A stretch of 64,000 bases of DNA from Gonapodya sp. JEL0774. Its lineage: Eukaryota. Made by a program: the position numbers and the translations under genes. Positions 2,195-26,036 of this stretch are shown here, one piece after another. Position 1 is the stretch's first letter. Each line of letters starts with the position of its first letter. The notes under the pieces were generated by a model that was given only the letters and a program-made list of their open reading frames with translations, had not been told where the DNA came from and ran no database searches. Where the stretch lies: assembly GCA_027604505.1 (NCBI GenBank), contig JADIIX010000028.1:62001-126000 (forward strand). The letters run 5' to 3'.

Positions 2195-3346
2195 TCAATT
2201 GTCTGTTCCCAGCCTTAGACGAAGCTTAAGTAGGAACCGAATCTCAGGCGCACCGAATCTGTATTCTCGGAGCATAGCCTCGACGTCTGATCTGCGCACG
2301 CCTGCGCGCAGCAGAACAGCAACGACAAGTGGGCGATGGTACACAATGGCGAAACGGAGAGCTTCACAGTCGTCAGCGCGGACATCTGCGCCGTAGGCAA
2401 GGAGGGTGCGGACAAGTCTGACGTGACCGATGCGGGAGGCGGAGGCGAGAGGGCGATTGAAGAGGTGTTTTCCAGATGTCATCGCATCGCCGTATCCCTG
2501 AACGTCAGCCCCCCACTCCAAAAGAAACTTTGCCAGGTCAAGGGAGCCTGTACGGCACGCCTTGTTCAAGCCGAATCCGTTGTAAGCGTCCACATTTGCG
2601 CCTCGCGTCAGCAACAACTGCAGGACAGGGAGGGATATGGTTTCAATGTCGCCCACCATACCCAGGAACAGCGCGTGATCAGGTTGCTGGATATCTAGCG
2701 CTTTGTTTGTGTCCGATGCGTGAACATCAGCACCCGCTGCTAATAGTTGTTGTACCATCATCAGATCTCTACGACGGCAGGCCGAAAAAAGTGCACGATT
2801 TCGAGACTGGCTGTCCTGACCTCGTGCTAGAAGCAATCCGACGAGGTGGTGGTGTCCGCTCTCCGATGCGAGTTCCAGCAAGTTTCTCTGTCCCTGCTCA
2901 TCAACAAACACGACGCCACAGTCCAGGAGAAGGCCGAGGACAACGCTCTGTCCCCGAAAAACGAGATTCTGCAATATCACGGGAAACTGCAACCACGTGG
3001 GAGCACTCGCAATCTCGGATTCCAGACCGGGGCACCGACGAAGGAGAGCTTTGAGGACGTGAACCGATGGTTGAACTCTCCGACACTCATTGTGGAAGGC
3101 GAGAAGAGGGAAATGAAATTTGACGAGAGCACGGGACGCAATTGTGTCTGGATCGCGAAGGGCGGGGAGGAGAGCTCTACAAATGGAATAGGTAGGAAGT
3201 CCGAGCCGATGCTCCACAGAACAGAAGGAGCTCAAACGCGTCACCAATTTCGGTGGGAGCGAGAGGATCGGGAAGATCCCCGGAGCTGGAATGCGGCGTC
3301 TCCAGAATGTCCAGGGGAAGACGCGCATTCGCTCTCTGTTTTGCAC
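2195..3346 (-). CDS. Ankyrin-repeat protein, single exon, with a degenerate F-box-like N-terminal segment
   Basis: 383-aa ORF with about 6 ankyrin repeats (ASESGHHHLVGLLLARG, LLAAGADVHA, LLEWGADVQ, LLAYGADVRADDCEALRFA). N-terminal segment ILSLPPKLVTRLSSF. Confidence 0.85.
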   Translation of the reverse strand: MQNRERMRVFPWTFWRRRIPAPGIFPILSLPPKLVTRLSSFCSVEHRLGLPTYSICRALLPALRDPDTIASRALVKFHFPLLAFHNECRRVQPSVHVLKALLRRCPGLESEIASAPTWLQFPVILQNLVFRGQSVVLGLLLDCGVVFVDEQGQRNLLELASESGHHHLVGLLLARGQDSQSRNRALFSACRRRDLMMVQQLLAAGADVHASDTNKALDIQQPDHALFLGMVGDIETISLPVLQLLLTRGANVDAYNGFGLNKACRTGSLDLAKFLLEWGADVQGYGDAMTSGKHLFNRPLASASRIGHVRLVRTLLAYGADVRADDCEALRFAIVYHRPLVVAVLLRAGVRRSDVEAMLREYRFGAPEIRFLLKLRLRLGTDN

Positions 3347-3997: not shown

Positions 3998-6900
3998 ATG
4001 GACGGTTCCTACCTCACAGACGAGACGCAGCTGATGGGACTTGTCCACCAACTGGTAGAGATTAACGCGGCTGCTGCAGCCCTCTCCGCTGCGGAAAGTG
4101 CCCGCCGAGGAAACACCTCTTTCGATCTTCCAAGTGAAATGGACGAGGCGAACCTCAATGGGGAAAATGGAGAAGCTGAGAACGGCATCACGTTGGGAAA
4201 CGGCGAACCATATGATGAAACAGGAGCAGATGCAGTGGATAGCTTGGCTGTGGCGGTTTCAGAGGACTTTCAAATGTCGCAGATCATCAAAACTGTGTTC
4301 CGCAACGGGCGACAGGAAGCATTTCTGGGTCAGTTGGAACTTTTCATCGCGAGAAAAGAGTCAGAAATAGAGCGAGTGTGCAATTTTCACTTTGAGGTAA
4401 GTGTCTATGACGCAGATTTGGTGTCTCGTGGATAGGTGCCACACTCTGAGCCACGCCAAACATTGTTCTCGGGTACCATCCCGTTCCGCACTCGGATGAT
4501 GTACGTCCGAAAGCTTGGACAATTTTGGAATATCTTCTCCGCTGCCCCAATAGCGTGGTATTCTGCAAAACGATGATCAACTGACCATGAATCCCGCCTC
4601 GTCCTCGGACATAGGAATTCGCCCAAGCCGTTGAGCAACTTCTCAAAATTCGCTTTGACGCTTCACGACTGAAGTCCACCATAGCCGAACTCAACAGCCA
4701 GCTACAAGAGTCCGGTGCGAAGCTTCTCGAGACTGTGAGATTCTTTCGCTCAAGATGATTTCTTCAGTCAGTCAGATCTGAAAGCTAACACTGTGCTTGT
4801 CTGGCTTTTCCACCTTCTTTTGTCACTGTTCCGTCACAAAAACGCGCTCGACCACCGTTGTATCCCCGTTGCCCAGACCAAACTCCTCTCCTCCCAACAT
4901 CGTACCCTTCTCAACATCGATTCGGCATCTGAAGCTCTCCGCTCCTGCCTGCGGCTTCTCGAACGGGCCAACAAGGTTTTCATCCAGATCGACAACCGCC
5001 GCTTCTACGCCGCTCTCAAGGGGCTCGAGGAGCTCGAACAGGGTGTGGCCATCTCATCGTCATCTGGAGGCTCGGGTGGAGATAAAGGGGCGAATAAGCT
5101 GGCGAATTTGAGCTTTGTGAAGTACTTGGGTGAGTTTCAGCAAGTTGCAGAGGGAGTCAATCATGGAGTACGTGGTACCTTCCAGTTCTCGTGCTGATAC
5201 TTGAGAGGGCATCCTTCCATCTTCAGAGGAATCCATACCCATTTTACGCGAGCGAATACGTGAGGCTGTCACAAAAGAAACCAAAGACTGGTTGGTTCAG
5301 TGAGTTCACACCTTCTTGCCCGTGTTGTCCTTCGCATGCGACATCTTGTATTCCTCCAAATGCTCGCGGCTTAGTGTGCGAGAACTTTCAAGGAAGGTCG
5401 GCCGTCTCGCAATGGAGCAGACTGCTTACCGTCAAGCCCGTGTCCACGCTGCGATGACCGGCGGTGCTGCTGCTCAACAAGGTGCAGATGGAGAGAACCA
5501 GCCCCCGCAGAGGAGGAAAGTGAGCTTGAGTGTGGAACTTGTGTTGAATGAGGCGAATGAAGGTTGGTATTCGAAGTTTGTGGTCTGTCAGTGAGGATGA
5601 GATTTTGAATCACAGTCCTTGCAAATAACACCCAGAAAACCTCGTGGACAACACTACCGTTCGGATCGATTTCCGACCTCTGTACCAAGGCTTGCACATT
5701 CATACCACGCTTGGCCTCCGGGACCAGTTCAAAGTACAATACGAGTCTGATCGGCGCGCCCAGCTGGATCTGGTGCTCACCAGTCACTTCAATTTGCGAG
5801 GTGTTGAAGACATGGTTGGATTTGAGGGATTCTTGTGGGATGTGGTGGGATTCTTTGTGGTGGAGAGTGTCGTCGGAGAGACAGGTGGAGGGCTACGAAC
5901 CCGGGCTGCGGTGCGTTTCTTGCTGATATTTCAAAGCGGCTACGTATAGTTTCGATTCATGCATGATAAAACGCTCCTAGATTGAGAAGCTGTGGGAGTC
6001 AGCTGTTACGTCAATCCTCTCCATTACTTCGTCCAATCTGCAGGATTGCGGGTCCCCTGATTTGTTCTTGGAGATCAAACTCCTTCTCATCACGTTTATT
6101 CAGACCCTCGAGGGCTATGACTACAACGTTGAGCGCTTGTACGAGCTGATGGGCGGTTTGTTTGCACGCTACGCAGAGCTGATGAAGGTTGGGGCGAGCG
6201 AGCGCATTCGACTGGTGAGTGTCCTCAGTTAAACTCACGAAGCACAAAAACCTTGTCACCTAGTATTCGCTTAGATTGTTGAAATGGACGACTTCAGTCC
6301 AATGATCATAGACAATCCAACACAATACGAACAGTTGCCACGGTCCCTCCGGCTATCCCCCATCGCAAAATCTGGGCCTGGTGGCGCCTCTGCGGCTCTA
6401 CGGAATGTTTTCCCACGTACTTTACCGTTCTCCAAAGGAGTTTTCCAAGTCTGCGACATTGTACGAAAGTTCATCAATGGTTACTACCGGTTCGCGGAAG
6501 GATTTATGCACCAGTATGGCGCGATGGATGATCTACTGAAAGATGTGAGATTTCACGTTGTAATTGAATGCGAAGCACCGGTGGTGGTACATTTCCTCAT
6601 GCAATCCGCCAATCAACGCTCCTCCTTCTAGTCCTTGGAAATTCTCCTCTCTACTCACGTCTCCCAAGCAATTCTCACAAAAGTAGCAGACTCGCAGAAT
6701 CTCACGTTGGTCGTCCAAACACTCACAAATCTCGATTTTCTTGAGTCTGCGACAACGGACTTTGAAGATTTCCTGATGGAAAAGCGCATTTCGCATAACA
6801 AAGGTGGCCGTGTTTCCTTGCAAAGCAAGAAGGTCTTCCAAGATACCCACAAACAGGTCGAGAAGAGAGTATTTGAGCTTATGAATGAAAAGATCGACGA

Positions 6901-7948
6901 TTTCTTGGAAGTCGCAGAATACGACTGGTATGACAACTGCAATTCACGACATGGTGCTTTGGAAGCCATGTGATGATGGACCCGTTTTTACAGGCTGACG
7001 TCGAGTGTTGCCACAAAACCGTCCCCTTACCTATACGATCTTGTAAATTACCTCACTACCATCAACAGTTCAGTGTTGTCGAGCTGCCCTCCACAAATCA
7101 AAAGCTTCATCTACTTCGACGCCTTCGATCACCTTTCTCGGAACCTTGAGGTGTGTTTTCCGTTGGTGATCGCAAAATCAAGATGGATCTCATCTCCTGG
7201 AAAACGTCCGCGGCCGTCGCATTCATAACTTCAGAACATGTTACTCAAACCAGAAGTTCGAAAAATATCGCCCCAAGCTATCGAGAACTTTCATCAAGAT
7301 ATTATGTTTCTTGAAAGCTTTGTGGAGAAACTTGCTGACCCCAAGTGAGTCTCTCGTAGCGTTCGGGTCAGAACTATAAACCGATTGGTACACCACACAG
7401 CGTCCTCGATACTTTTCAGGAAGTCCGGCAGGTGAGAATCTCAAGGAAAATGGAGAAATCCTCGCTCTAATCACGGAATCCTCAAATCTTTCACCAGGAA
7501 ATCAATTTCTTGAGAAGTGATGCCCTGGAAGAGTATCTGAACCCATCCATCCGAAATAGAAAATACGGGCGTATAAAGGAGCAGAAAATTTTTGTTCTTC
7601 TGGAAAAGTGAGTTGAAGTGATGATTACAACATTATGTTCACCTCCCTGCCTCAACCAATGAATGTTCTTTAAGAATCCGGCCAGATTCGAGCATGTTCA
7701 GTTCCTTGATGTCCAAGAAAAAAGAGACTCCTGCCGAGACAGCACGCCGCACGGCGGTCGACAATGTGCTGAAAGCTATGCGATCTGCACCGCGGGACTC
7801 CAGAGAATCAGGCGGCAGCATGGACATTCCGAGATCATCCACGCCGCTTAGTACAAAGCCCCCCACCTCGGTGGTAAGCACTTCTTCTGTGTCTCTTGGG
7901 GGCGCTGTTCTTGGTAAAGCTCGGCGAACCGGTGGAGGAGGCTCTTAA
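3998..7948 (+). CDS. SEC15: Exocyst complex subunit Sec15 (EXOC6), multi-exon
   Basis: Exons encode FIARKESEIERVCNFHFE, RFYAALKGLEELE, IDFRPLYQGLHIHTTLGLRDQFKVQYESDRRAQLDLVL, FPRTLPFSK and MNEKIDDFLEVAEYDW, all Sec15 motifs, joined by GT-AG introns. Confidence 0.92.
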
Positions 7949-8775: not shown

Positions 8776-10706
8776 ATGGGTCTCAAGAAGATTCGCTTGG
8801 AGTACTGGGAAGGTGCTGCGTGCCTGATTGATCCATGATTTGTTGATCAAACTGACTTTTGCTCTCATCCATGCTCCAGGGATCAAAATTCTCGTTCTTC
8901 GTAGCGAGAACTATCCCCAAACGTATGAAGAATTCACGTTTACTCTGTGCAGTAAGATTCCGGCCGTCCGAATGGCGGCCGAGAAGTTCGTTATTCGCTG
9001 CAAGTGGAAGGACGAGGGCTCCCACCTGGTTCATCTGGACGATGACGACGACCTAGAGCTTTTATTTGAAACATTGGAAACAGCAGTTGTGATCATTGAA
9101 CTAGAAGAGGTGGGATTGCGGTGGGAGATTAACGTCCTTGTGATTCAACCTGAATGGGTGTTCGGATGTGGCAGGTCAGCGACGACACTCGAGGTCTTCT
9201 TTGGAGTAAAAGTCGATTCGAGAACTTCAAGGATACCAATGCTCAAAATCGCAGAGAAAGGGAAAGGTCTAGACACAGCTCAACTCCCGAGAGTGCACAC
9301 TCTCGTGATGTTGCTCCACCTGCGCCACCTCGGGGGACTAACAGTTTTCCCAACGGGTGAGACTCCTTGTAAGAGAATTGTTTCGCGATTCAATCGCTAA
9401 TATCCTGCAACATGTCCAATCCAAAAGGTTGAGCTCCTTTACATCGAATGTTGTTCGTGCTCCGGAGCCTTATCTGCACTCTCCAAAGCGTACCGTCGAA
9501 GCCGGAAATCATTCACCATTACGCACACCAGAAACCATGTATTCGCCTATCCGTAGTCTGGAATCAAACCACTCGCGAACATATTCGTCGTTTTCAGACG
9601 CCACACTTGCTGAACGGCGAGGGTCTTCGAGTATCGACCGAAATCCACATTCAAACTCATCGAGTATCGACCGGTATCAACATTCAAATTCGAAAGAGGA
9701 CGGCCGTTATCCAGCACCTTTGAAGGACAGACTCGCTACCATTATATCGGACCACCCTGCTTTCGAAGCCCGTCCTCAGCCCCAAGCGCCCCGCAGTATC
9801 ATCGATTCAAACCAGTACCTCAGCATCAAAATCGGAAGTCGCGAGTTCAGTTTTCCTCTGGAGTGGCAGAACTCAAAGACCTCATCAAGATCAGATCTAA
9901 TGGGTATCCTGGGAAAACCACAGTGGATTGGGCAACGGTCTTGGGGATACAAGAAGGTGAGCTTGAACTTCACAGTTCGTTATCGTTTCTGTGGGCTATT
10001 CACATCCGATGTGATCATGTAATCGCTTGGAACGACAGGTTGGTTGTGATGAAGACAACATGACGATGACTTACGGAGCTAGAGCAAGCAGCATCCGGGA
10101 TAAGTTCAGGAAGGACACCGAGTACAATTTTGTGAGTACCGTCACGGTTGCAGATCCGCTCAGAAGCGCTAAGTGTTTGAATTTGTGCTTACAATTTGGA
10201 TATCCTTCTCTTTCGCCGTTAACTTGCAGACTATAATGTTTGACGGCCGTCCCATGTACCGAGCTGCGGAAGAAAACTACCCAGCAAAACTTGAAACCCT
10301 GACGCCTGATGATTTCTTTGAGGGTTTCATCAAAACGATCTCTGAAGTTCGTGACATTGGTAACGATCACCTTTCGATTGCAACGGAATGGGCGTGCATT
10401 ACTCCTCCGTTCGAGGCTTTTGCGGAGAACGCAAAAGTTGGAGGAAAGTACCATTGTCTGTATCTCGTGAGAGACGCGCGTTCCGCGGTGTTAACTGAAG
10501 GTGGGAACACGCGGTTGCAGAATTGGATAAAAACGCAAATGAGCTCTGGAGTGTGGGGTGAGTGAGATTGGTTATAGTTGAATCGGACGCGTGCTTTTGT
10601 CTCACGGACATCGCGCCCAGCCAGTTCGTCGCTAAAGACGGGAGATATTTTGGGGGTGGGCATTTCGGACAACGGTCCTTCCAACTACGTTCCCACTGTA
10701 GCTTAA
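8776..10706 (+). CDS. PB1-domain protein with uncharacterised conserved C-terminal domain, tandem paralogue 1
   Basis: Exon 1 (8776-8812) MGLKKIRLEYWE. Exon 2 (8880-9109) GIKILVLR...CKWKDEGSHLVHLDDDDDLELLFE (PB1 with OPCA motif). Ser-rich linker, then REFSFPLEW...QRSWGYKK...TEWACITPP...RLQNWIKTQMSSGVW. Last exon ends at TAA 10704-10706. Confidence 0.8.
9627..9692 (+). repeat. 33-bp tandem duplication (2 copies) in the linker of paralogue 1
   Basis: tcgagtatcgaccgaaatccacattcaaactca / tcgagtatcgaccggtatcaacattcaaattcg, encoding SSIDRNPHSNS / SSIDRYQHSNS. Confidence 0.8.
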
Positions 10707-11649
10707 GTTGCATCATGCACTTTTGCCCAATTTTTAATCCGATTTGTTTTTTTTGTTTGTCTATCAAAGAGAATTACAGTAATTTTGAGTGGGGGGGGGA
10801 GGGGGGGGAAAATTCGAATTCATAAGACGAAAACCCCAATTTCACGAATTTATACGAGTCCAAGTGATAGTGACGGTGTCAGCCACCTGCCAGCGGCTTG
10901 ACAATAATGTGTTTGAGCCGCTGCCAGGTACTAGCTAAGTAGCTGTCTCCCAGAGAGCTCAGAGAGGACGATCCAGCTTTCCATTTTGCATCTTTTACCA
11001 TTATCGTCGATATTTTGATACATCCATTTGGGTCGCAATTACCGACGACAGAAAATAGGGCCGGGGCGTTTGCAGAAGCCGATCATCAAACATGCCGAAT
11101 CGGGGAACTTGCTCGTTTGCCCCGAGAATATAGAATACTCAGTCGACGCTTCTCTAATGTATTGGAGGTACGAGATCAAGCTGCTCACTCGAAATGGTGT
11201 CAAAATGGGGTCATCATGGCTTGTCATGCATAAATTCTCCTTCCTACATTGAAATCTGTTGGAAAGACTTTGCTTGAATATGTCTGCAAGTGATGGAGTG
11301 ATTGCATCATGAAAGCTCCTTTGAGATTGCTTCTTTAATTTGGAGATGACCTTGTCCTGGTGTATAGTAAAACGTGTCTAAAAGTAACGAAATGATAACG
11401 ACTAAACTTGCATCACCAATTAATTTGGTAAAGGCTTACGAACGTGAAAACAATCGCAGGATTGGATGGGAACCTGAGCCGCTGTGGTGGTGTTTGCATC
11501 TGTTTACATACAACAACTGGAAAGGGTCCTCCCGCGCTGCAAGCCAAGCGTGCCGCTGCAACTGCCCCGAAAAAAATCCACTGCCTTCTCCTCGCCATAA
11601 TACAAAGTCATTCGCACAATCATTCCGTCGAATCGGACCTGTGTGGAGA

Positions 11650-13528
11650 ATGTCGAAGAAACTGCGACTCCACTACTGGGACGGTCAGTATTTGAAACAT
11701 CTTGATTTTCCTGTCGAATCTCTTCCCACACTTCCCTTATCACACCATGGCAGGTCTCAAGGTTGTGAATCTTCGAGATGGCCTTCCAGCAACGATTGAC
11801 TCTCTGATTCACATCATTCTTCAACGAGTTCCTCCAATTGCTCGTGCTGCTGGATCTTATGTCATCTGTCTCCATTACAAAGACCGAAACTCCCAAAGCT
11901 GTTTCCTGGAATATGACAGGGATCTGGTTGCTATGTGGGCGGAAACAGGAGACATCATCGACCTTGTTTTGGAGCTCACAGAGGTGACTAGACAGTCTTG
12001 ACTGCATTTATCAAAGGAACACGTCCCAGGAACTAACTCTGACATTCCTTGCGCACAGGTGACACCGTCAACGCAACATTTTCTGTGGTCCGAAGAACGG
12101 ATTGACCGATTCCAGCCCACTTGTCTTGCTGTCGATCACGACGACAAAACAACGCCATCACCACCCTCACCCGGTCTGTCTCAGAACTTTGTCCCCCCTG
12201 AGAAACGTGACAATCCATCGGTTACGGGGGGAATGTGGTCCTCGGATGTGTTGATCAACCTGGCGTCCAAACTTTCATCCATTGATGTGGATGAACACGG
12301 CCTCTATGCCCCGTTTCACATAACTGACTCCTCTTGGACCTCCAAAGAGTCTCCTAACACGCAGTCTCAGAACCAGTATGCAGGGGGTGCGTTTCAACAG
12401 CCTAGCCTCACAATCACTCCCCCTCCCTCGGCATCCCCATCGGGTCTGCACTCGCGTGTTCCCAGTGGCTCCGCGTCACCTCCACGCACCGTCTTCTCAG
12501 ACAATGTCGAATCTCCATCATCCGAAGCGCGTTCTGGAAGTTCATGGCAACCCAGTGTTGACAGCACACCGCACCTCAATTCTGACTCTCCTGGCCACTC
12601 ACGCCAATCCAGCTTTCAATCGAACTTTGCACCGTCGAATTATTCAGACTCCCAACGTCAGTCATCTCGATCACAGCAATCCGGATACGGATCTTCCGTC
12701 CAATCGGATACACCCAGTGAGTATCTTGCGATTCAAGTTTCAAATTCGCACAACAATTTGAAAGTTCGATGGTATCGGTAACGCCTTTAGCTGACGCGTT
12801 TACCAGCATATCTGTTCGAGTTTTTGAAATTGAGTATCCATTCAAACTTTGTTGGATGAACTCCACGTCCTCCCCGGCGCAGGACTTGATTGGTACTCTT
12901 GCGAAACAAGAGTGGGCAGCGCAGCGGTTTCAAGGCTATAAACTAGTACGTTGCGCTTAAAGTTGGAGATAATAGTCGTGACTGACAGCACGATGTTCTT
13001 CAGATGAAATCCGATCAGACCCGACTCTCTATTTCCTACGGTCCGCGGAAGTCGAGCGTTCGAGCCGCGTTCAAAGCCGATAGCTTGTATTCCTTTGTGA
13101 GCTTATACTGCGCTTGCTGTGTTTATCGTAATACTCGTTGACCGTCAACCCTGTGGTGGGTTGTGTTTTACAACTGTCAGACCATTTTATTCGAACGGCC
13201 GCACCTCTTCCAAGCCGCCACAAGAAGGTACCCTGCGAAACTCGACAGCATGAGTTTCGCGGAGTTTCACCGCCTACTTGTCGCTTCTCTGTCCCAGCCG
13301 GGCGGTTCAGCTTCCGGCGACGACAAACTTCGGGCGCTGTCCACTGATTGGGCGTTCATAACCCCTCCCTCGCAAATGGTTCCGGACAATCCAAGGGGTG
13401 GCGGAGTATTTCACTGTGTATATGTTGTCAAGGACTCCAGGTCCAAGGTGCTGAGCACTGAGTGCACCCTGCGACTCCAATCGTATCTGAAAGCACTCAT
13501 GATTGATGGAGAGTGGGCCAGTGAGTAA
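11650..13528 (+). CDS. PB1-domain protein with uncharacterised conserved C-terminal domain, tandem paralogue 2 (3' end approximate)
   Basis: MSKKLRLHYWD|GLKVVNLRDG...LHYKDRNSQSCFLEYDRDL, then an S/P-rich linker, then EYPFKLCW...QRFQGYKL...YGPRKSSVR...STDWAFITPP...RLQSYLKALMIDGEW. Confidence 0.78.
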
Positions 13529-14344
13529 GGTTGCGATTTGCATGGGAGCGTTCATGTTTCGATTTATCTCAAGTGATCCATGGTCCCTCTCCCAGTCAAT
13601 CGACGACGATATTAATCCCTCACTGACCACTGTCATTTGCAGGACGGCCCTTGCACGCCCTAAATTTTGTAGACTCGTATGGCTGTAATTGCTCTGCTCC
13701 GGCCGCTAATTTTGACTACTTTGTAAGGTTATATATGTATTTTTTCCCTTGTCTGCTATTGCGTGGCCATGGACGCGTATCCGCATGCTCTTGCAGATGC
13801 AATATTTGTCTCTTTTCGTATTTCGTTCATGGACGCACACGAATGAACAAATCCGTCTTGTATACACCCGGCGCAACGTCGCATGCGCTTGAAGGAAATA
13901 GTTGATTTCTAAGTAGGCTGCGACCAGTAGATGTTATTGCCTGCCGTTCTGTTCAGACAGCATGCGGGTTCCTTCCGTTTCGGGAGACGTGATGAAAGTA
14001 ATGCCGAAGCTCCTCTTTTCTTGGGACAGCCGTCTCCCATTTCTTCGGTTCCCATAATATTGGCTGGATGGAAAGTTATTGGAAAGAACGGCTTCCAAGC
14101 GCTCGTTATTCTCAATGTATGCTTATTCAGATCGGAATGTGGAATCAGTTTTGGTTCTTTGTGGTATTTTTAGAGAGCCGCCACACAAGGCTTCCCAGTT
14201 TGGCCGTCCCCTTCCCTGAAGCCGCAGAACCTTCCAACCATAATCATCTGTTGGCGCGGGTCCACCTACCGACATTTGCAACCAAAGTGGAAAGCTTTTG
14301 AGTTCGGGAGGCCCGTTTCTTCACAAGATCGTTGCAAAGTCGTC

Positions 14345-16182
14345 ATGGCACTGAAAAAGCTTCGAATCGAGTATTGGGGAGGTGGGTCACCCGCTCCATG
14401 TTTGGTTCGCTGGTCATTGCTCAATCTCATAGGTATGCTACTGGCGGTGATTGAAAGGTGTTAAAATAGTGGTTCTTCGCTCGGAGGCGCTTCCCGAAAC
14501 GTTTGACGAGTTCTTCTACCTGCTGTCATCCAAAATGCCCCCCATCGCATCGGCTGCGGAGAAATATGTCGTCAGGCTCAAGTACAAAGATCAAGAAGGG
14601 TCTGTAGCCGTGCACCTGGATGATGATGATGACCTCTTGGTGATGTATGAGTCCTCAGAAACAACAGTGATCAACGTGGAGTTGGAGGAGGTGAGTTTAC
14701 GGAGCAGGGCTCTAAAGTGGAGCTGTTGCTTGTTTCTCGACTTTCGAAATGGACTCTGACATATTTGTTACACTTCTGCTTCTCAACTTGGTCATTCGTC
14801 TTTGCCAACGAACACCCACGATATCCCATGGATGTAGGTCACTGAAGTTACACGCGACCGCTTATGGACCAAGCAGCGGTTCGATGAAGCACGTGAACTG
14901 GCCGCCTCAAGCGCCCGAGCCTTGCCAGCCCGACGGAGCCCTTCGATTTCTTCTGGGATTGCCTCGGCGGCACCAGTACCCGACCAGTGGCCTCAGAACG
15001 TGCGACAAGCTCCCCCAATATCGAGGTCGAACTCATCCACCTATTCTGACGGGTACCCTGTGAATGCGCAACCTATCGCGGCAGCAGCGATACCGCCCAC
15101 TCACCAACATTATGCCGCCCCTCATGACATGGGCAGTCTCCATTCCCGAGGACAGATACCGCAGATGCCTCCGCCTTACCTCTCTCATTCATCTCCGCTT
15201 CTCAAAGATGTTGGAGTGGTCGGTTCCATTCCTTCCTCGAAGCAGATCATACTTGATGGCAAGGGGTATAATGCCTTTCCTGTGACAGACCAAGCACAAG
15301 CAATCAAATCGGAAACCTTAGTTGTAGTGGCGGCTGCACGGGAGTACAGATTCCCGATCGTATGGAAGAGCGCTGACACCACCACGACCGAAGAACTGAT
15401 GGGTCCTTTGGGGCGACCGGACTGGAGTATTCAGAGGTCTTGGGGTTACAAAAAGGTCAGTTTCGTATTGGAACCTTCAAAATGAGAAGAGAAGCCCCCG
15501 CACTGTTCACAAGTGTCTCGGTGTCCCCAGGCCAAACATGATGAATCCACGATGACTATTCAGTTCTCACCGCGCAAGTTCAGCCTGCGATCCAAGACTG
15601 GTGGTGACACGCACTATGTCTTTGTAAGTTCATTTTTAAGACCTGAAACTGCAGATCAGGTGTGATGCGGTGCCGTTACTCATTGGTAACTTCACGTACA
15701 AATCTTCTTCCACGCCCGTCTTTCACCCTAGACTATCATGTTTGACAGTCATCCTCTGTTCACAGCCGCTGTTAGCCGCTACCTCCCCAAGTTCGACGCA
15801 CTGACTGCAGCACAATTCCGCATGCAACTTATGGACCCGATATCAACTTCTGTCGTCACCGAATGGGCATGCATCCAACCCCCACTGGCGTTTGTGACCG
15901 ACAATTCGAAGATGGGCGGAGAGTATCATGTTCTCTATGTAGTGAAGGATGCGAGCAGGGACATGAGCGAATCTACGCGGACCCGGATGCAGAGCTGGTT
16001 GAAAGGACAAATGATTGCAGGAAGCTGGGGTGGGTTCGATAATGCCCTCTGTGTATCGTCTCATTTGTTGGTCTGATTACTTTTCTCTTCGGGTTTATAT
16101 AGCTACTCAAATGCTGCAACGGGGACGTAGTGGTGTTGGGGGAGCACAGGATGCAATGAACCACGGGTTGATTGGACTTTGA
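14345..16182 (+). CDS. PB1-domain protein with uncharacterised conserved C-terminal domain, tandem paralogue 3
   Basis: MALKKLRIEYWG|GVKIVVLRSE...LKYKDQEGSVAVHLDDDDDLLVMY, then REYRFPIVW...QRSWGYKK...TEWACIQPP...RMQSWLKGQMIAGSW. Last exon ends at TGA 16180-16182. Confidence 0.8.
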
Positions 16183-16780
16183 GACATGTCTCTGCAATCG
16201 TGGAGAAACCGTGAAGCACCAAAATAATTGGCACTAGATTTGCTTTAATTTTTCTCAGTGTGTTTTTGAATTTGGATAATAAACGGAAATAAATTGTATT
16301 GATCAACCATCTGGAACGCCTCGCATGTATAGTTATGTGTTATTTATTGACCACTTTGTGACAGGTCTTTGTGTGGGATCCATCATCTGTGGGATTGTCA
16401 GAGGAGCAAGCGGCAAGGTCCGAAAACGGATTGGCCCCCAAATGGAGATGACACCAAATTGCGGGACGCACACAACAGAGTCTATTCTTCTCTCTTTCAT
16501 AAATGTGGTGTTATAATCTTACTGGGGATGTGTAATCATGGGAGGGTCCGAGAATAGTTTGTTGCATCATCAATCATCTTCGAAGGCATGATCACACCCG
16601 ATGAATGCTGAATCAAATATGTACGTGCCACATTTCGGGTCCAGAAGATAAAAAGCTTTTGGGGAATGGCCCAAATAGATGATGACTCGTATTGGTTATT
16701 TTTGTTGGAGGCGCGGATGGAAGTGCACATGTTGTTTCACTTGTTTAGCCAAATTCGGACAAACGCGACAACCTCAAACC

Positions 16781-19707
16781 ATGTCGATCGGCCCCAAGCG
16801 CCTTCGCGTGGAGTACTGGGACCGTGTGAAGCATATTTTGCTCAAGGAGGGCGCCTATCCGGGCACCCTTGAAGAGTTTGTTGTGCTCTTGTGCTCAAAA
16901 GTGGAAGTCATCGAGAACGCCGCTCTGCAATTCGTGTTGGTTCTCAAGTACCTTGATGGAGATGGTCGGACGATTGTAGAGATGACAGATGACCGGCATT
17001 TGAGGGCCATGTACCGTTCGAGTGCGGAGACATGCGTGGTGTTTGTGGACCTTGCCGAGGCAAGTATATTGCTCCTTTTTGGGATCTGTTTGACGATCCT
17101 CGTTCAGATAACCGTTCTCTATATTTGAATGCATCGTTTCATCTCATTTTCATTCATTTTTGGTGCTGGTTGGTACGGGTGGCCCACTTGTGTAGGCAAC
17201 ACCGGAAAATCGGCACCTATTATGGACACACGAGAAGCTAAATCGCGTCAGGGCAGCCGCAGTTGCAAGTTTAACGCCTCAACCGAACTTTCCTGTGTTA
17301 GCGGAATGGGACGCACCTCCGAATCATGTACCCCCCGCAGTGGAGCATGCTGGTATCTTGTGGTGCCATCACTGTACTCCTTGCCATTCCAATTTAATAG
17401 CCCGCCTCTTCCCCCCCTACACCCCACTCTCTAGGCACGGCCGTATCAAAGGAACTATCTTCCGATCATATAAGCTCAAATGAGCACACTCGAACCTTGT
17501 CAGGCAGTTCTGGGCCTTCTGTGCACAATTCGTCCAGACCTCGTAATTTGGGAGGTCAAGCCTCGACTATGGAGTCGTGCGATACGAGCACCACCCTTCA
17601 ACAGCTTAGCACTCCTCCAGGCACCCCTGTAACAGGCCAGCCTCCTCGATCGCACTCCCGCTCGGCCGTTCCACCAAAAGAGCAGTGGAGAAACTCGGGC
17701 GCACAGCTGTTCAGCGATATGAACTTGTATGGAGCCGGCACCGATACTGAAACTGATGCGGAGAAAGCACCACCTCCAGTCGCAAGCCATCAGCCTAGGG
17801 GTGTGCTCAAAAAGACAGGCTCCAATTCGCTTTTCCCCCGGTCTGTGACAGGCTCAAACACAATGAGCTCCGCATCGACACTTTCAGTTTCTACCACTGT
17901 GAGGTCCTTGTGCTTGATGGTTGCCGTTGCATGTGTCAGCTGTTCTTGAACCTTCTATGTGGTTTTTTCGACCATAGCAACAAGGAATGACGGACGACAC
18001 CTCATCAACTTCCTCTGGTTCATTATCTCGCTCCGCTTCCGCCCCGTCTGGTCGAAATTATGCATCCAGCAATGCCACTCCTCCCTCCACAGCAAACCGC
18101 ACCATGCCATCCAGCGATTGGGATCGCCCGCTACCTTCCACCCCTCTCTCTCCCTTCCCAAGCCCTGATCTCAGTACCCGCTCACTCTCAGGCTCACTGC
18201 CGCGCTCGTCAGGTGAAGCTGTGACGCTGGTTGAAATGAGAGACTTATCAGTGGGTGCGAGAAACTTTGCCCTCCCATGGCGAGTATCCGCAGCGAGTCC
18301 GACTGCAGAACTAATGGGTGTTCTCGGAGAAGAAGGGTGGGGTAATCAAAGAACGTGGGGTTACAAACAAGTATGTGCTTTGTGCGTATGAGCTATCGAG
18401 ATGACCTGTTATACTGAGTGTCATGACCGGTGATGATGCAACGCATAGCTGAAACCTGATAACACCGAGTTGTCGGTGACTTACGTCCCCCGATACAGCA
18501 GTGTGCGTCAGAAAGCCCAGACTGCGTACACGCTGTACACTTTCGTGAGTTAATTGAAGGGACAGGTGTCTGTTTACTTAATTATCCGACCTAAACCATG
18601 GCACAAACTTTCAAAAACCTGTTTTTCCAACCTGATGTATCCTCATTTTACTTGTGCACTCATTCCGTATCCAGACAATTCTCTTCGCGAACCACAACCT
18701 CTATCACGCGGCACTCCCCCGCCTCCCCTTAAAACTTGATCGCCTGCTTTCTCCCGACTTCCGAAGTTATCTTCTGGATCCTATCTCTAATTCTATCCCA
18801 GAGGGTACGGAGTGGGCCTATATTGCTCCACCAGGGGATTTGGTCGCGAAATCCGCGAGTGCGCAAGGAGGGCTGGTGGAGTACGCTGCGTTGCACGTGG
18901 TGAAACCGAGGGGCACATCCGTGAACGAGAGTTGCCTTGTGAGGGTGAGAACTTGGCTGGCTGGGAGAATGGTGGTTGGTGGAGAATGGGGACGTGAGTT
19001 CCTGTTCTCAATGATTATGCGACAATATTCTACATCAAAGTTGGTCTGCATTTCCGGCAGCACCTGATGCAAGCAGTGCCCGCATCACGCGTCACAATTC
19101 TCCCTCTCGACCCGGCTCGCGCTCCCGTTCCAGATCTCGTGCCCCAACTCCCGGTCATCGGTCCCCTCGACCCAGTGGAGCGGCCACCCCTCCTCCGAGT
19201 GCCAGCTCACCCGTTTACTCAACATCAGAAGATCGCGAAAGAGACCGAGACAGGGATAGTGGACGGCTTAGCGACCGAGAGACGAACGTACGGTTGCAGC
19301 GTGCACCAACCCCGAGGGAGAGGGAGAGGGACGCTTATTCACGAGGAGGACGACGGGACTCGAGCGGAGGGTCGAGACAGGCTGGAAGTCCTGTGGGCTC
19401 CAATAGGAGGAAGAGCTTGACTGAGTTGGTTTTCGCTGTAGATGGGGGTGGCACGGGGGGTGGGACCAGTGGAGCGATGGAAGGCTCTGCCGGCGCAACT
19501 GCCACAAGCAACTCCGCCGGAGCGTCTCCATCTCTTGGCCCCCTTCGATCGGACTCTCGTTCCAGCGGCTATTATGAGAGCGGAGCGGATGGTTCCAGAT
19601 TGGGCGACTCAGGAAGGGGACGGGGAAGGACCGATCACCGGGCCGAGAGGGCCGAGTGGGTCGGGAGGGTGGAGAGGGGGGATCGGGATCGTGCACAGAG
19701 GGAGTGA
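16781..19707 (+). CDS. PB1-domain protein with uncharacterised conserved C-terminal domain and RS/RD-rich tail, tandem paralogue 4
   Basis: MSIGPKRLRVEYWDRVKHILLKE...LKYLDGDGRTIVEMTDDRHL, a long S/P/T linker, then RNFALPW...QRTWGYKQ...TEWAYIAPP...RVRTWLAGRMVVGGEW. The final exon from 19061 is in frame with ORF 19294-19707. Confidence 0.78.
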
Positions 19708-20414: not shown

Positions 20415-21971
20415 CTACTCCAACCTCCCGTACCCGAATGTCGCCGGATCCTCGCTCGCGCCGAATTCCGTGTCCTCATCTTCTCCCGGAGCCCACTTTC
20501 CGTACTCCTCGAACGAGGTCGCGGACGCGTAGAGGGCGTCGGCGGTGGTGAGGAGGGACGTTGGGTGGTGGTGGTGAGCTCCGTTGGTTGCGTGTGGAGC
20601 GTCAACGAGACCACTGGGGGAGGATGTATGTCCGTTGGAGGGAAGGGAGGGAAGGTCTGCGGAGGGGAATACGGGATCGATGTCCAACCAGGCGAGACGG
20701 TCACCAATGGCAGCGGCCGACGCGATGGGATCAGTATCTTCGGTGTCGACCGTTTCGTCGGCGTCGTGGAGAGCCGGATGGCCTGATTCGTCTAGCGATT
20801 GGGCATCGTCGAGGGTGATGGGGAGTGTGGGTGTAGATTCGATTGCAGATCCGTCGTGGGCGGATGAATCAGGGAAAGAGACGGGGAAAGCGAGGGTGGA
20901 GGAAGTAATGGTGGACGAAGAGGATGGGAAGGAGGGCATATGGAAAGCGTCAGATGCAGAAATGGAGTCAAAGGCAGTTGGGAATGCGGAAGCTTCGACA
21001 TTTGTAGTCGGAGCAGCAGTGATTGCGCTCTGAATATCGGGCGCAGAAAATTCAGTGGAGGTCGGTGCTGGAAAGCCGAAAGCGTCGTCAAATCCAGAGG
21101 ATACCAGAGTGACGGGGGCGGGTACGGGTGAACCAACAAATGCGTCGTCGAAAGAGGCGGACACACTGGACGTGGTAGTCGGAAGCGGGGCGAGGGAGGA
21201 CCAGGGATCGTCGGAAGGTGCTTGGGTGGTGGAGATCGAAGAGGCGGTCGGTGCAGGAACAACACGGGCGAGGAGGTTGAGTGGTGCCAGCTTAGCACCG
21301 GTGCTGGGGCGTTTGGAGTGAGTTTTGGGTCCTCCAGCCCCGCCAAATATACCGCCAGAACCACCAAACAAGTCCATTTTGAGGAGGGTTTCTCGAGTTT
21401 GGGCGAAAGCCTTCAAATCTTCCTCCACCGAGCCGGAACCCGAACCACGCTCCGCATCAGAAGAAGCAGGCCGCATTACGACCTTGAACGGTTGAAGCTT
21501 CTGTGGAGCAGGGAGCGGGGTTGGCAGTGGAGCGAGCGAAGGGTCTTTGACAGTTGAGAGCAGTTCTGCCTTGGAGAAGGAAATGGGGCCTGCCGCGGTA
21601 CTGGTCTTCTCAAAGAGTACCTCTTTCCCCTTTCCAGAGAAATCAGCTCCAATTGCCGTTTTTGTTTTCATGGGATCTTCGTCCTCGTCGTCTTCGTCGG
21701 TGTTCGCACCGTCAGCGTCATCTCCATCGTCGAGAAGGCCCTTTGCGTCCGCCCCACCTGCCGCTTTCGCAGAGGCAAGATCACGTTCTGCAGCTTGCGC
21801 TGCGACTGAAGACAAAGACGATGCTGCCTTTAGGTTTCTGTCATTGTCAACGTTCGCCTCCCTTTCTTGAGTGTCTGTCTCTCCGTCAACGGAAGATGCC
21901 ACCGACTCTGCGTCCGAGTCGTCGATTTCCAGAGTAGAGTCAAAGGGAGAAGTGGACGTGGGGAAAGACAT
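20415..21971 (-). CDS. Intrinsically disordered acidic/Pro-Ser-rich protein with DPW and FxDxF motifs (putative endocytic accessory protein)
   Basis: Long open frame; likely start MSFPTST at 21971. Contains DDPW, two FDDAF motifs and a PFKVVMRP segment. No globular domain recognised. Confidence 0.6.
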   Translation of the reverse strand: MSFPTSTSPFDSTLEIDDSDAESVASSVDGETDTQEREANVDNDRNLKAASSLSSVAAQAAERDLASAKAAGGADAKGLLDDGDDADGANTDEDDEDEDPMKTKTAIGADFSGKGKEVLFEKTSTAAGPISFSKAELLSTVKDPSLAPLPTPLPAPQKLQPFKVVMRPASSDAERGSGSGSVEEDLKAFAQTRETLLKMDLFGGSGGIFGGAGGPKTHSKRPSTGAKLAPLNLLARVVPAPTASSISTTQAPSDDPWSSLAPLPTTTSSVSASFDDAFVGSPVPAPVTLVSSGFDDAFGFPAPTSTEFSAPDIQSAITAAPTTNVEASAFPTAFDSISASDAFHMPSFPSSSSTITSSTLAFPVSFPDSSAHDGSAIESTPTLPITLDDAQSLDESGHPALHDADETVDTEDTDPIASAAAIGDRLAWLDIDPVFPSADLPSLPSNGHTSSPSGLVDAPHATNGAHHHHPTSLLTTADALYASATSFEEYGKWAPGEDEDTEFGASEDPATFGYGRLE

Positions 21972-22533: not shown

Positions 22534-25500
22534 ATGTCCCGCTCCAGTCCTACATCGTCGGCAGCCAAACTGATTGAAGCTGTCGAGCGAGGAGATATTC
22601 TTGAGGTTGAGAATCTGCTCACCAATGGAGCGGACCCGAATGCTGTCAAGACGGTGACTCTCTTACTGTTGAACAAGACCGACACAGTAAACGGCGAGAG
22701 CGCGTTGGCACTCGCAATATTGCATGGACACGATCAGATTGTCGAAGTACTCCTGAAACACGGAGCGGACCCGATGCAAAAAATTAGCTGGATTATCAGT
22801 GAATATCCCGAACATGGCGAAAGCTGGACGATCCAGAAATGGGATAATCGTTGGAGATACAAGTTTTCTTGTACTGATGCACTGTCACTGGCGTGGGTAG
22901 GAACGTGCAGACGGGCAGAGTTTCACGAAAATGGCGACGAGTCAGTTGCAGTGGAAGTCAGCGAAAAGGTGTTGATCAACATGCCTGGAGGCGATGTTGT
23001 GCACATACTGGACAGCGTTTGGGGCCACACACCGAATGAACGCTCTGTTCTCTACAGAGAGCACAACCTGCACCTCCAACCCGCTGTTCTTATCGCACTT
23101 CGTAAATGCAGCAGCGCATACATTCGCGTGGTTTATACTCTGAATATTCCTGCTTTGAGTCCTCATGCTTTGCGAAACTACTTGGAGGCGATGTTTAAGT
23201 ATTTGGAAGACCTTCAGCGTGAACTACAAGTGGAGAGGGCTGAGCACAAGGAGTGTCAGCAGCTCCTTGAGAGAGCTCAAGTGGCAAATTTACAAAAGCG
23301 CAAAGAGCTCACTGGAACAACTGTGGCTCCGGAATTAGGTCATCCAATACTGTCCACTGAAATCAACCAGATTCGGGCGCGGGATCCAGGGACTGAAGTG
23401 GCGAGACAGCACGTCCTTGATTGCCGTCTCCAAAAGTTAGAAGCACAGGTGGACCATGTCAGATCCGCTTTGAGCTCCCCGATGACGCCTGAAGGCGACT
23501 TGCGGAGCCATTTAGTGATGGTTTTGATCAAGTTAGAAGAACTCCGATGTGATCTCAGTTCGGAGAGGAAGGAGCATGCAGAATGTCAACGGATGCTCCG
23601 AAGAGTGGAGGGGGACACTGCAGATTGGAGTGCGAGACACGATCGGATACCCGGAGACTCTGCGGGGGCAGCTCCTATGGTCACTTCAGGAGAAGCCGTC
23701 CAAAGAGATCAGGAAAGGGTGAATGTTATGGATAATGAGACGGTGGACAGTCACGCAGCCCCGAATATACCCGCAATCGTCAGCCAACTCAATGTTGTCC
23801 AACTCGAATCAAGGATGAATCCACGGCCGAATGGTTCATCCACCAGCGCACGAAATTCTCAGCAGACGAGGCCTTCTGCGGTAGCATCAGATTCTGGGGG
23901 GAGCAAGTTGGAAATGGAAATTTCCAGGTTGCAGCGCGGCCTTGAAGCGAAAACAAACTCGTGTATAGATCTCAAAGCGGAACTCGTGCAGTTCAAAGGC
24001 AAGTTACAACAACTTGAAATCGACAACGTACAGCTGCGAAAAGATCTCAAGCGAGCAAGGCGCGGTGCACGCTCGGTTGTTTTGAAAGCTAGAACTCATG
24101 CAGCTCGGCATCAGGAAGAACTCGATCATATACGATCGAAACTGAACGAGGGGATTGTTTCGTTTGAGCGTGCTCTTATGATCTCGGAAACAGAGGGATC
24201 GTCAAAAGAGCAAGGCAAACGGCGAATGGAGACAATTCGAAGTCTTGAAACAGATGCGGAGGTCCTCCAAGATCGACATGGTTCTGATTCTGCGGACCAG
24301 CACGCGAAACAAAACGAGCTTGACGAGAAAGTGCGTAGTCTGGAAGAGGAGAAAGCGAACCTTGAAATTGAGCTTAGGAAGATGAAATCTAAGGCAGATG
24401 AGGCGTCGAAGCGAGCCAACGCAGTGGAGACCAGTCGAAGTGAGCAAGAAATTGAACTTGGGACTTTGAGAATTGAGCTTTCGGCTGCGGAGACCAAGAT
24501 AAAATCACTCGAATATAGAATTGGTGAAATGACCACAGAAGCGAGAGACAGCGTGACGGCAAGGGCGGTCCTATACCAAAATTTAAGCACATGGGAGTCA
24601 AGAGCAAGACGAGCGGAAGAGGAGCAAGCGAGTTCGCAGATCACAAAAAAAGAACTAGATGCTCAGCTTACTACTATGAGAGGTACAAATGAGGAGGCGT
24701 CAAAGCGAGCCAAAGAAGCGGAAATGGTCCGCGATGAGCGAGAAGCGGAACTTGTGGATTTGAGAGAACAAGTCTCGGTTGCGAAGAGCACGATAACAAG
24801 GCTGGAGTCTGAGGTCGCTGTCATCAAGAAAAACTCTGCAACGAGGATCGAGGAGCTCGAGACTCGAGCACAAGAAGCGAAATCGCAGACAGCGGTGCTT
24901 CAACGCAAAATTGCGGAGCTCCAAATCGAAAGAGGCCGAATCTCCGCATCCAAAAATACAATGGAGTGCCAGCTTACAGCCTCTAACCGTCAGTTGGAGA
25001 CTGTTCGACTCGACTTAGAGGCGGCAAATGGACAGCGTGATACTGCTGTGCGCACCAAAGTAGACTTGGAAACGAAACTCGAGGCTAGCAAGCAGGAGTC
25101 GGAGCGTCTTAACGGGGTAATCCGAGCTCATGCACTCCAAGTCGAATGTTTACGATCTACAAATGCCTCCTTAGAAACGGAGTCGAGGAAAAAGATAGAG
25201 GCGCTCACTTCCCAAGTCGCCAAGCTGACCAGTACTAACGCAGAACTCCAATCACGTCTCAGAGGGAATCTTGAAGAGCGGTCTGCTGAGCTTTCTGCAG
25301 CGACCGAGAACTTGAAAAACATCACCTCACAACAGACCTCGACATTCGAACGCATGATCGATACTATTAGGCGTGAAGCAAGCGATGCCAGGCGCGGGGA
25401 GATGGACTCGAAACTCGATTTGATCACCGAGAAAGTTGAGGTCCTGCGTACAGAGTCTCGAGCATCTCTTGAAGACGTACGGCAACTCATGATTCGAGGC

Positions 25501-26036
25501 AAGCGAGCTCGAAGTCCTGAGGTGTCGGATGGCTATGGGGATTACATGTCACCAAGCGAAGGCTCTTCTAGAGGAAGGACGGTTGGAATGCATGAGGTGA
25601 GTCAAAGGATCTGAAATCGCATTCTCACTTTGAAAGTACGCACGTGATGGCGGAAAGACTCTCCTCATGTCCATTTTTGATAGCCTGATCTTCAACGTGG
25701 TTCGGATAGACGAGGTGCCAAACGTCCCAAACTCCTCAGTGGTCCGTCGCCGGTGAGGATGCTTGCGTGCTTCCAGATTTGTGCACCCCGCGGGTTACAT
25801 TAGTCACTGCTTTCTCATCACAGCCTATTGGTGAAGGAAACGACGATCCTGACATCTCTCAAAATAGTTATTCCGATATATCCACTCTCATGAAATGGCA
25901 CGAACAGATATCTCAAAGGGAGCGGGATCTCGCTCGGCGAGAGTGGAAGTTAGCAGAGGATGAGAAAAAATTGAAGGACATTGAAGCTTTTGCGATAACG
26001 CGAATTTTTTCTTCGAGCCAGCGTGGGAACAACTGA
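22534..26036 (+). CDS. N-terminal ankyrin repeats plus long coiled-coil protein
   Basis: Exon of >1000 codons encoding LIEAVERGDILEVENLLTNGADPN and GESALALAILHGHDQIVEVLLKHGADP, followed by about 550 aa of heptad coiled coil. Two short 3' exons end at 26036. Confidence 0.8.

What the first reader, a model, noticed from the sequence alone, without database searches (positions are those of the whole stretch)
8776..19707. Tandem array of four genes: PB1 polymerisation domain + disordered linker + unassigned conserved C-terminal domain
Seen: four co-oriented paralogues start at 8776, 11650, 14345 and 16781. Each has a PB1-like N-terminus (KK[IL]R[LI]EYW...[YW]KD.EG...DDDDDL) and an unrelated S/P-rich linker. 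Each ends in a ~170-aa domain with the consensus W, [DE]L[MI]G.L....W..QR.[WQ]GYK, Y.[PA]R.SS.R, TI.F...PL[YF].AA..RYP.KLD.L, T[ED]WA.I.PP, GG.[YF]H.[LV]YVVKD and R[LMV]Q.WLK..M..G.W. Intron positions after GYKx and YxF are shared, while the DNA is strongly diverged, so this is an old expansion that has been retained. Known: PB1 domains build front-to-back oligomers and signalling scaffolds (p62, Bem1/Cdc24, NoxR). I cannot assign the C-terminal domain to any family. Inference: this is a possibly undescribed PB1-assembled signalling or effector family.
Basis: partly seen in the sequence, partly recalled or inferred. Interest (0 to 1): 0.8.

Follow-up and report, generated by a model that had tools for sequence, protein, structure and literature searches.

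The report
Gonapodya PB1 scaffolds with unassigned domain
Four neighbouring genes of the water fungus Gonapodya belong to a large protein family that joins a known protein-stacking (PB1) domain, through a floppy linker, to a conserved domain that no library could name and that is predicted to fold, and they likely work as signalling scaffolds.

The parts
8776..10706 (+). Gene 1 (494 aa). Exons 8776-8812, 8880-9109, 9175-9356, 9428-9956, 10039-10131, 10230-10557, 10621-10706
   Evidence: The linker intron 9357-9427 and the tail exon are inferred; without the last intron the frame stops at 10565.
8776..9109 (+). g1 PB1 domain (basic beta1 Arg; five-Asp acidic cluster)
   Evidence: Pfam PB1 E 6.5e-5, 23.2 bits against a cut-off of 23.6
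9804..10557 (+). g1 C-terminal unassigned domain (aa 276-467, three exons)
11650..13626 (+). Gene 2 (520 aa). Exons 11650-11683, 11754-11983, 12059-12716, 12791-12945, 13004-13096, 13181-13520, 13574-13626
   Evidence: G. prolifera orthologue P0009, 61% in the C-domain. Tail exon inferred; without it the frame stops at 13528.
11650..11983 (+). g2 PB1-like domain with reduced acidic face
   Evidence: Aligns to g1/g3 at 34-42%; no Pfam PB1 hit for exon 2; orthologue P0009 hits PB1 at E 1.5e-4
12793..13520 (+). g2 C-terminal unassigned domain (aa 309-503)
14345..16182 (+). Gene 3 (452 aa). Exons 14345-14381, 14458-14690, 14838-15455, 15531-15623, 15732-16029, 16103-16182
   Evidence: The whole model, first and tail exons included, is mirrored by the single-gene protein P0002 (78% overall); tail also in G. 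prolifera P0015.
14345..14690 (+). g3 PB1 domain (basic beta1 Arg; D-x-E-G plus five-Asp cluster)
   Evidence: Pfam PB1 E 0.006
15303..16029 (+). g3 C-terminal unassigned domain (aa 246-427)
   Evidence: its paralogue P0002 (86%) was the protein folded, pLDDT 89.5
16781..19707 (+). Gene 4 (784 aa). Exons 16781-17059, 17196-17352, 17435-17898, 17978-18370, 18449-18544, 18675-18993, 19061-19707; first intron has a GC donor
   Evidence: paralogue P0021 55% overall
16781..17059 (+). g4 PB1-like domain, one exon, reduced acidic face
   Evidence: Aligns to g1-g3 at 30-42%; no Pfam hit alone
18218..18993 (+). g4 C-terminal unassigned domain (aa 381-569)
19061..19707 (+). g4 tail exon: 215-aa Arg/Ser-rich disordered tail with an RS repeat and an RRKS site
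   Evidence: Frame supported by P0021, which keeps the RS repeat and the RRKS motif (51 of 134 identical); RD/RE alternation 22, reached by 0 of 2000 shuffles but not kept in P0021

Best explanation
These are four intact paralogues of an expanded protein family, so far named only in Gonapodya, that joins a divergent PB1 domain through a disordered linker to an unassigned, predicted-folded 185-aa domain, and they likely act as signalling scaffolds. Shown: gene structure, age, family size, PB1 identity by profile, and SH3 domains in some relatives. Inferred: the PB1 basic face (beta1 Arg, beta2 Lys) docks on the acidic cluster of the next PB1, giving homo- and hetero-oligomers or docking on Cdc24/Bem1/NoxR-type PB1 domains. 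Inferred: this makes the C-domain multivalent, and its conserved basic and aromatic residues (QRxWGYK, Y-x-P-R, VVK) bind a phosphate-bearing ligand at a membrane (phosphoinositide or phosphoprotein), so the scaffold gathers at a cortical site. Inferred: the fast-evolving linkers carry kinase sites and short docking motifs that give each paralogue its own partners.
For: PB1: the 17-sequence N-domain profile hits 7 PDB sequences at E<=10 and all 7 are PB1 domains (NBR1, Cdc24, p40phox; best E 0.006); Pfam PB1 matches 7 of 17 members, best 4.7e-6. Beta1 Arg in 24 of 28 and beta2 Lys in 22 of 28 aligned PB1-like domains; g1 and g3 have a five-Asp cluster. Head-to-tail PB1 binding by basic and acidic faces is described in PMC7051960 (passages). 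Signalling partners: SH3 in 5 of 37 relatives (3 above Pfam's cut-off), in two of them between PB1 and C-domain, spread over several deep branches of a quick tree; known fungal and animal PB1 proteins pair PB1 with SH3 (Bem1; PMC7051960 section 9). Ligand surface: across 41 C-domains K286 is basic in 39 of 39, K390 in 40 of 40, R281 in 38 of 39, K338 in 37 of 41, R302 in 33 of 39, with W/Y/F at 257, 285, 299, 347, 363, 417 (P0002 numbering); 28 of 41 have pI>=8. R[RK]x[ST] sites in 31 family linkers: 35 observed against 15-16 in local shuffles, 0 of 300 reach it; four control ORFs show no excess. C-domain model: pLDDT 89.5, pTM 0.88, five models 84-90.
Confidence: 0.45

Rival explanations
1. 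PB1-polymerised nucleic-acid-binding regulators. The C-domain is a heavily elaborated OB-like fold that binds RNA or ssDNA, and PB1 plus the disordered linker form condensates, in the way plant ARF and NLP factors couple a DNA-binding domain to PB1.
Confidence: 0.25
2. The C-domain is an enzyme of unknown type (for example acting on a nucleotide or phospho-substrate), switched on by PB1-driven clustering.
For: An acidic residue in T[ED]W is kept in 37 of 40 domains and lies among invariant Thr, Trp, Arg and Lys residues; a second acid at 267 is kept in 32 of 39. The domain size (185 aa) would suit a small enzyme.
Against: His384 (26 of 41) and Asp391 (20 of 41) looked conserved in 11 sequences but are not in 41; no Cys or His column reaches 75%; position 362 alternates Glu/Asp. 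Dozens of retained paralogues with variable linkers suit adaptors better (inference).
Confidence: 0.1
3. Protein-protein adaptor with no phosphate ligand: the C-domain binds a small GTPase or a structural partner (for example p62/NBR1-like cargo capture), and the conserved basic and aromatic residues are structural.
For: Closest PB1 profile hits are NBR1 and Cdc24. Many invariant residues (W, F, A, L, P, G) could be core packing.
Against: Six basic columns conserved at 77-100% across domains as distant as about 21% identity are more than core packing usually needs (inference). No CRIB motif in the five proteins scanned; no ZZ or UBA among the Pfam hits.
Confidence: 0.18
4. One long repeat protein, as in NCBI's fused 1438-aa model, rather than four genes.
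For: NCBI's model KAJ3341440.1 (P0001) joins all four.
Against: Each unit has its own ATG exon with the conserved beta1 strand, and gaps of 598-943 bp separate the models. The fused model drops the first exons of g1-g3 and the C-domain of g2. P0002 and the G. prolifera relatives are separate single-unit models.
Confidence: 0.02

Closest known systems
Bem1 / Cdc24 / NoxR / Mug70 (the four fungal PB1 families of PMC7051960, section 9)
   Same: PB1 domain; SH3 in some relatives, as in Bem1; Cdc24 PB1 is among the closest PDB profile hits
   Different: PB1 is N-terminal; no PX, DH/PH, TPR or CBS among the Pfam hits of the 37 relatives; an unassigned C-domain instead; dozens of paralogues. That survey used 12 fungal proteomes, and 'Gonapodya' does not occur in its four supplement files.
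p62/SQSTM1, NBR1, TFG, Par6 (N-terminal PB1 plus disordered region plus C-terminal binding module)
   Same: Same layout; NBR1 PB1 is the best PDB profile hit (E 0.006)
   Different: No ZZ, UBA or PDZ among the Pfam hits; Arg in place of the beta1 Lys; non-canonical acidic motif; the C-domain is unrelated to PB1 by profile comparison (probability 0.08%)
Plant ARF / NLP factors (nucleic-acid-binding domain plus disordered region plus PB1)
   Same: PB1 linked by a long disordered region to a basic folded domain (analogy; ARF roles read in PMC7051960 passages, NLP recalled)
   Different: Reverse order; nucleic-acid binding by the C-domain is untested
OB-fold domains (RPA70 DBD-A, SSB, editosome OB)
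   Different: Extra N-terminal hairpin, four inserted helices and a C-terminal helix; score in the range of a common arrangement

Membership tests
PB1 domain (PF00564) | Sequence match to the PB1 profile | tested here: met
   g1 23.2 bits (E 6.5e-5) and g3 17 bits, both under the 23.6 cut-off; g2 and g4 no hit alone; fused P0001 32.8 bits; 7 of 17 family members hit, best 4.7e-6; family profile: 7 of 7 PDB hits are PB1. Met at family level, marginal per gene.
PB1 domain (PF00564) | Ubiquitin-like beta-grasp fold of 80-100 aa | not tested
Length (about 90 aa) and hydrophobic pattern fit; no N-domain model was searched.
PB1 type II / AB | Conserved Lys in beta1 | tested here: not met
   The position holds Arg in 24 of 28 domains, including all four genes. 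Mapping rests on the Pfam alignment range of P0002 and my recall of where the Lys sits in the profile; the face remains basic (5-6 K/R).
PB1 type I / AB | OPCA acidic motif with D-x-[DE]-x-[DE] core after beta3 (PMC7051960) | tested here: not met
   0 of 4 have [YW]-x-D-x-[DE]-G-[DE]; g1 and g3 keep D-(x)-E-G and a five-Asp second cluster (7-8 acids in the region); g2 and g4 have 4-5 acids and 3 basic residues.
PB1 type AB | Head-to-tail oligomerisation | not testable with these tools
   Needs purified protein; the one prediction job is told under Tried and rejected.
Bem1 / Cdc24 / NoxR / Mug70 | SH3+PX, DH+PH, TPR or CBS domains with PB1 | tested here: not met
   Pfam scans of P0001, P0002 and all 37 relatives show no PX, DH, PH, TPR or CBS; SH3 only in 5.
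p62 / NBR1 autophagy receptors | ZZ zinc finger and UBA domain with PB1 | tested here: not met
   Neither family appears; no conserved Cys/His columns in the C-domain.
OB fold | Five-stranded closed beta-barrel superposable on known OB domains | tested here: inconclusive
OB fold | Oligonucleotide or oligosaccharide binding | not testable with these tools
   Needs a binding assay.
PH domain (considered from seven strands plus a C-terminal Trp helix; recalled pattern) | PH beta-sandwich fold | tested here: inconclusive
   Fold searches of the confident model; see Tried and rejected.

The most novel reading that the evidence does not exclude
The C-domain is a new fold, a new phosphoinositide- or phosphoprotein-reading module, and the family is a fifth fungal PB1 system of dozens of combinatorial scaffolds that Monoblepharidomycetes invented to run polar growth in their independently evolved hyphae, which lack a Spitzenkorper.
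Probability: 0.15. Interest if true: 0.85.

Novelty: new variant of a known kind. Interest (0 to 1): 0.6.

Why it matters
The published survey lists four fungal PB1 families (PMC7051960, section 9); this is a further one with a different layout, expanded to at least 37 clusters at 50% identity and largely invisible to Pfam. It supplies a small, confidently modelled domain that is a candidate new fold and easy to express and solve. Gonapodya belongs to the only chytrid-like group with true hyphae, evolved independently and without a Spitzenkorper (PMC6899921, passages), so a lineage-specific PB1/SH3 scaffold family is a concrete candidate for how it builds polarity. That link is a hypothesis. 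Practically, public gene models fuse these genes to each other and to presenilin or an ABC transporter, which hides the family. Limits: seen so far in two genomes of one little-studied genus, and no function is shown.

Full report
Verdict. Four intact paralogues encode PB1 + disordered linker + a conserved 182-195-aa domain + a tail. The C-domain is confidently modelled but unassigned. Function is inferred, not shown.

1. What is in the sequence. Spliced models from the four stated ATGs translate without internal stops to 494, 520, 452 and 784 aa. Of 23 modelled introns (53-147 bp), 22 are GT-AG and one, the first of g4, is GC-AG. Four intron positions are shared by all four genes: after PB1, after GYKx, after YxF and after the last GxW[AG]. 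A fifth is in three genes. Profiles of both domains find only these four copies in the window. Identity between window paralogues is 36-45% in the C-domain and 30-56% in the N-domain. Synonymous sites are saturated (pS 0.70-0.85) while pN is 0.29-0.48, so the copies are old and kept under selection, though dN/dS cannot be given. Linker introns and the g1 and g2 tail exons are my inference. The g3 model is mirrored end to end by P0002, and the g4 tail frame by P0021.

2. Source and annotation. The last C-domain exon of g3 matches P0001 at 99%, a 1438-aa NCBI model from Gonapodya sp. JEL0774 (Monoblepharomycota) that contains stretches of all four genes. I read that model as a fusion error: it drops three first exons and one C-domain, and relatives are single-unit models. 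The upstream neighbour is Sec15 (Pfam Sec15_C, E 9e-24).

3. The family. A profile of the C-domain against 1.84 billion cluster representatives gave 39 hits at E<=0.001. Two were false, leaving 37 at E from 4e-163 to 2e-9. In G. prolifera, P0004 (g1 clade), P0009 (g2 orthologue, 61%) and P0015 (g3 orthologue, 82%) have consecutive accessions KXS13161-13163 on one 308,911-bp contig. The array therefore predates the split of the two species (order inferred from accession numbers). JEL0774 has a second cluster on a 184,477-bp contig with two g1-like, one g3-like and one g4-like copy. Trees put proteins of both species in the same supported clades. 22 of 37 relatives have the PB1-like N-domain by my own profile, and two have it twice. 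5 of 37 have an SH3 domain, in two cases between PB1 and C-domain.

4. The N-domain. Single genes sit at or under Pfam's cut-off, but the family profile retrieves 7 PDB sequences, all PB1 domains, and 7 of 17 members match Pfam PB1. The type-defining motifs, as described in PMC7051960 (abstract, passages, section 9 and a term search of its supplements read), are altered. Beta1 has Arg (24 of 28), and none of the four genes has the full acidic core, although g1 and g3 carry a five-Asp cluster. Both a basic and an acidic face are present in g1 and g3, which is compatible with head-to-tail assembly. I did not predict the N-domain fold.

6. Linkers. They are Ser/Pro-rich and unalignable between window paralogues, with short motifs kept within clades. 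Family-wide, R[RK]x[ST] sites are twice as common as in local shuffles (35 against 15-16; 0 of 300), PxxP only weakly so. The window's four linkers show neither excess.

7. Mechanism. Best (0.45): PB1-assembled signalling scaffolds. PB1 faces stack or dock on polarity or Nox PB1 proteins, the C-domain reads a phosphoinositide or phosphoprotein, and linkers and optional SH3 domains recruit partners under kinase control. Shown: architecture, age, size, PB1 identity by profile, SH3 in relatives. Inferred: every binding step. Rivals: nucleic-acid-binding regulators (0.25), plain protein adaptors (0.18), enzyme (0.10), one fused protein (0.02).

8. Against what is known. It works like p62/NBR1/Par6/Bem1-type PB1 scaffolds by layout, but fails membership of each named family, because their partner domains are absent from the Pfam scans. 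PMC7051960 lists four fungal PB1 families from 12 proteomes; 'Gonapodya' does not occur in its supplements. No held paper contains both 'Gonapodya' and 'PB1 domain'. UniRef labels single members only as 'PB1 domain-containing' or 'SH3 domain-containing'. PMC6899921 (passages) states that Monoblepharidomycetes evolved true hyphae independently and lack a Spitzenkorper. Other papers were seen as search listings only.

9. Scores. Novelty: new variant of a known kind (PB1 scaffold with an unassigned domain). Interest 0.6: a solid, large, apparently undescribed family with a candidate new fold and cheap decisive tests, held back by narrow known range, unsearched AlphaFold DB and no functional data. 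Most novel reading (new fold, lineage-specific polarity system): probability 0.15, interest 0.85.

Noticed in passing
window 3998-7948 (+): Exocyst Sec15 gene ends about 830 bp upstream of g1 (Pfam Sec15_C on two exons). Yeast Sec15 binds the PB1 protein Bem1 (recalled), but adjacency in a eukaryote is weak evidence.
   Followed up: partly
P0001, P0003, P0006, P0008, P0010: Public models fuse family members to each other (P0001, P0003), to presenilin (P0006), to an ABCB transporter (P0010) or to an unrelated long C-terminal part (P0008); probably annotation errors that hide the family.
   Followed up: partly
JEL0774 contig of 184,477 bp (P0002, P0003, P0021, P0006): A second array with g3-like (86%), g4-like (64%) and two g1-like (48-52%) C-domains in the same assembly; suggests a segmental or larger duplication, or mixed haplotypes.
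   Followed up: partly
window 17060-17195: First intron of g4 uses a GC donor at the position where g1-g3 use GT.
   Followed up: yes
g1 aa 248-258; P0003, P0004: A short helix-like motif ([LV]K[DE]RLxxxI) is kept in the otherwise unalignable linker of the g1 clade in both species; candidate docking site.
   Followed up: partly
P0025, P0026: Two very long relatives (1379 and 1543 aa) carry two PB1-like domains each.
   Followed up: no
P0007, P0005 (G. prolifera): Two near-identical copies (97% in the C-domain) on different contigs, a recent duplication; both models start inside the PB1 domain, probably missing exons.
   Followed up: no
window 20418-21971 (-): Convergent neighbour: intronless, acidic, disordered ORF of about 517 aa with DPW- and FDDAF-like motifs resembling endocytic adaptor motifs (recalled); no Pfam hit on the 428 aa scanned.
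   Followed up: partly
window 2195-3328 (-) and 22534-25614 (+): Two ankyrin-repeat genes in long single ORFs lie on either side of the region; the second continues into a long stretch that looks like coiled coil by eye.
   Followed up: partly
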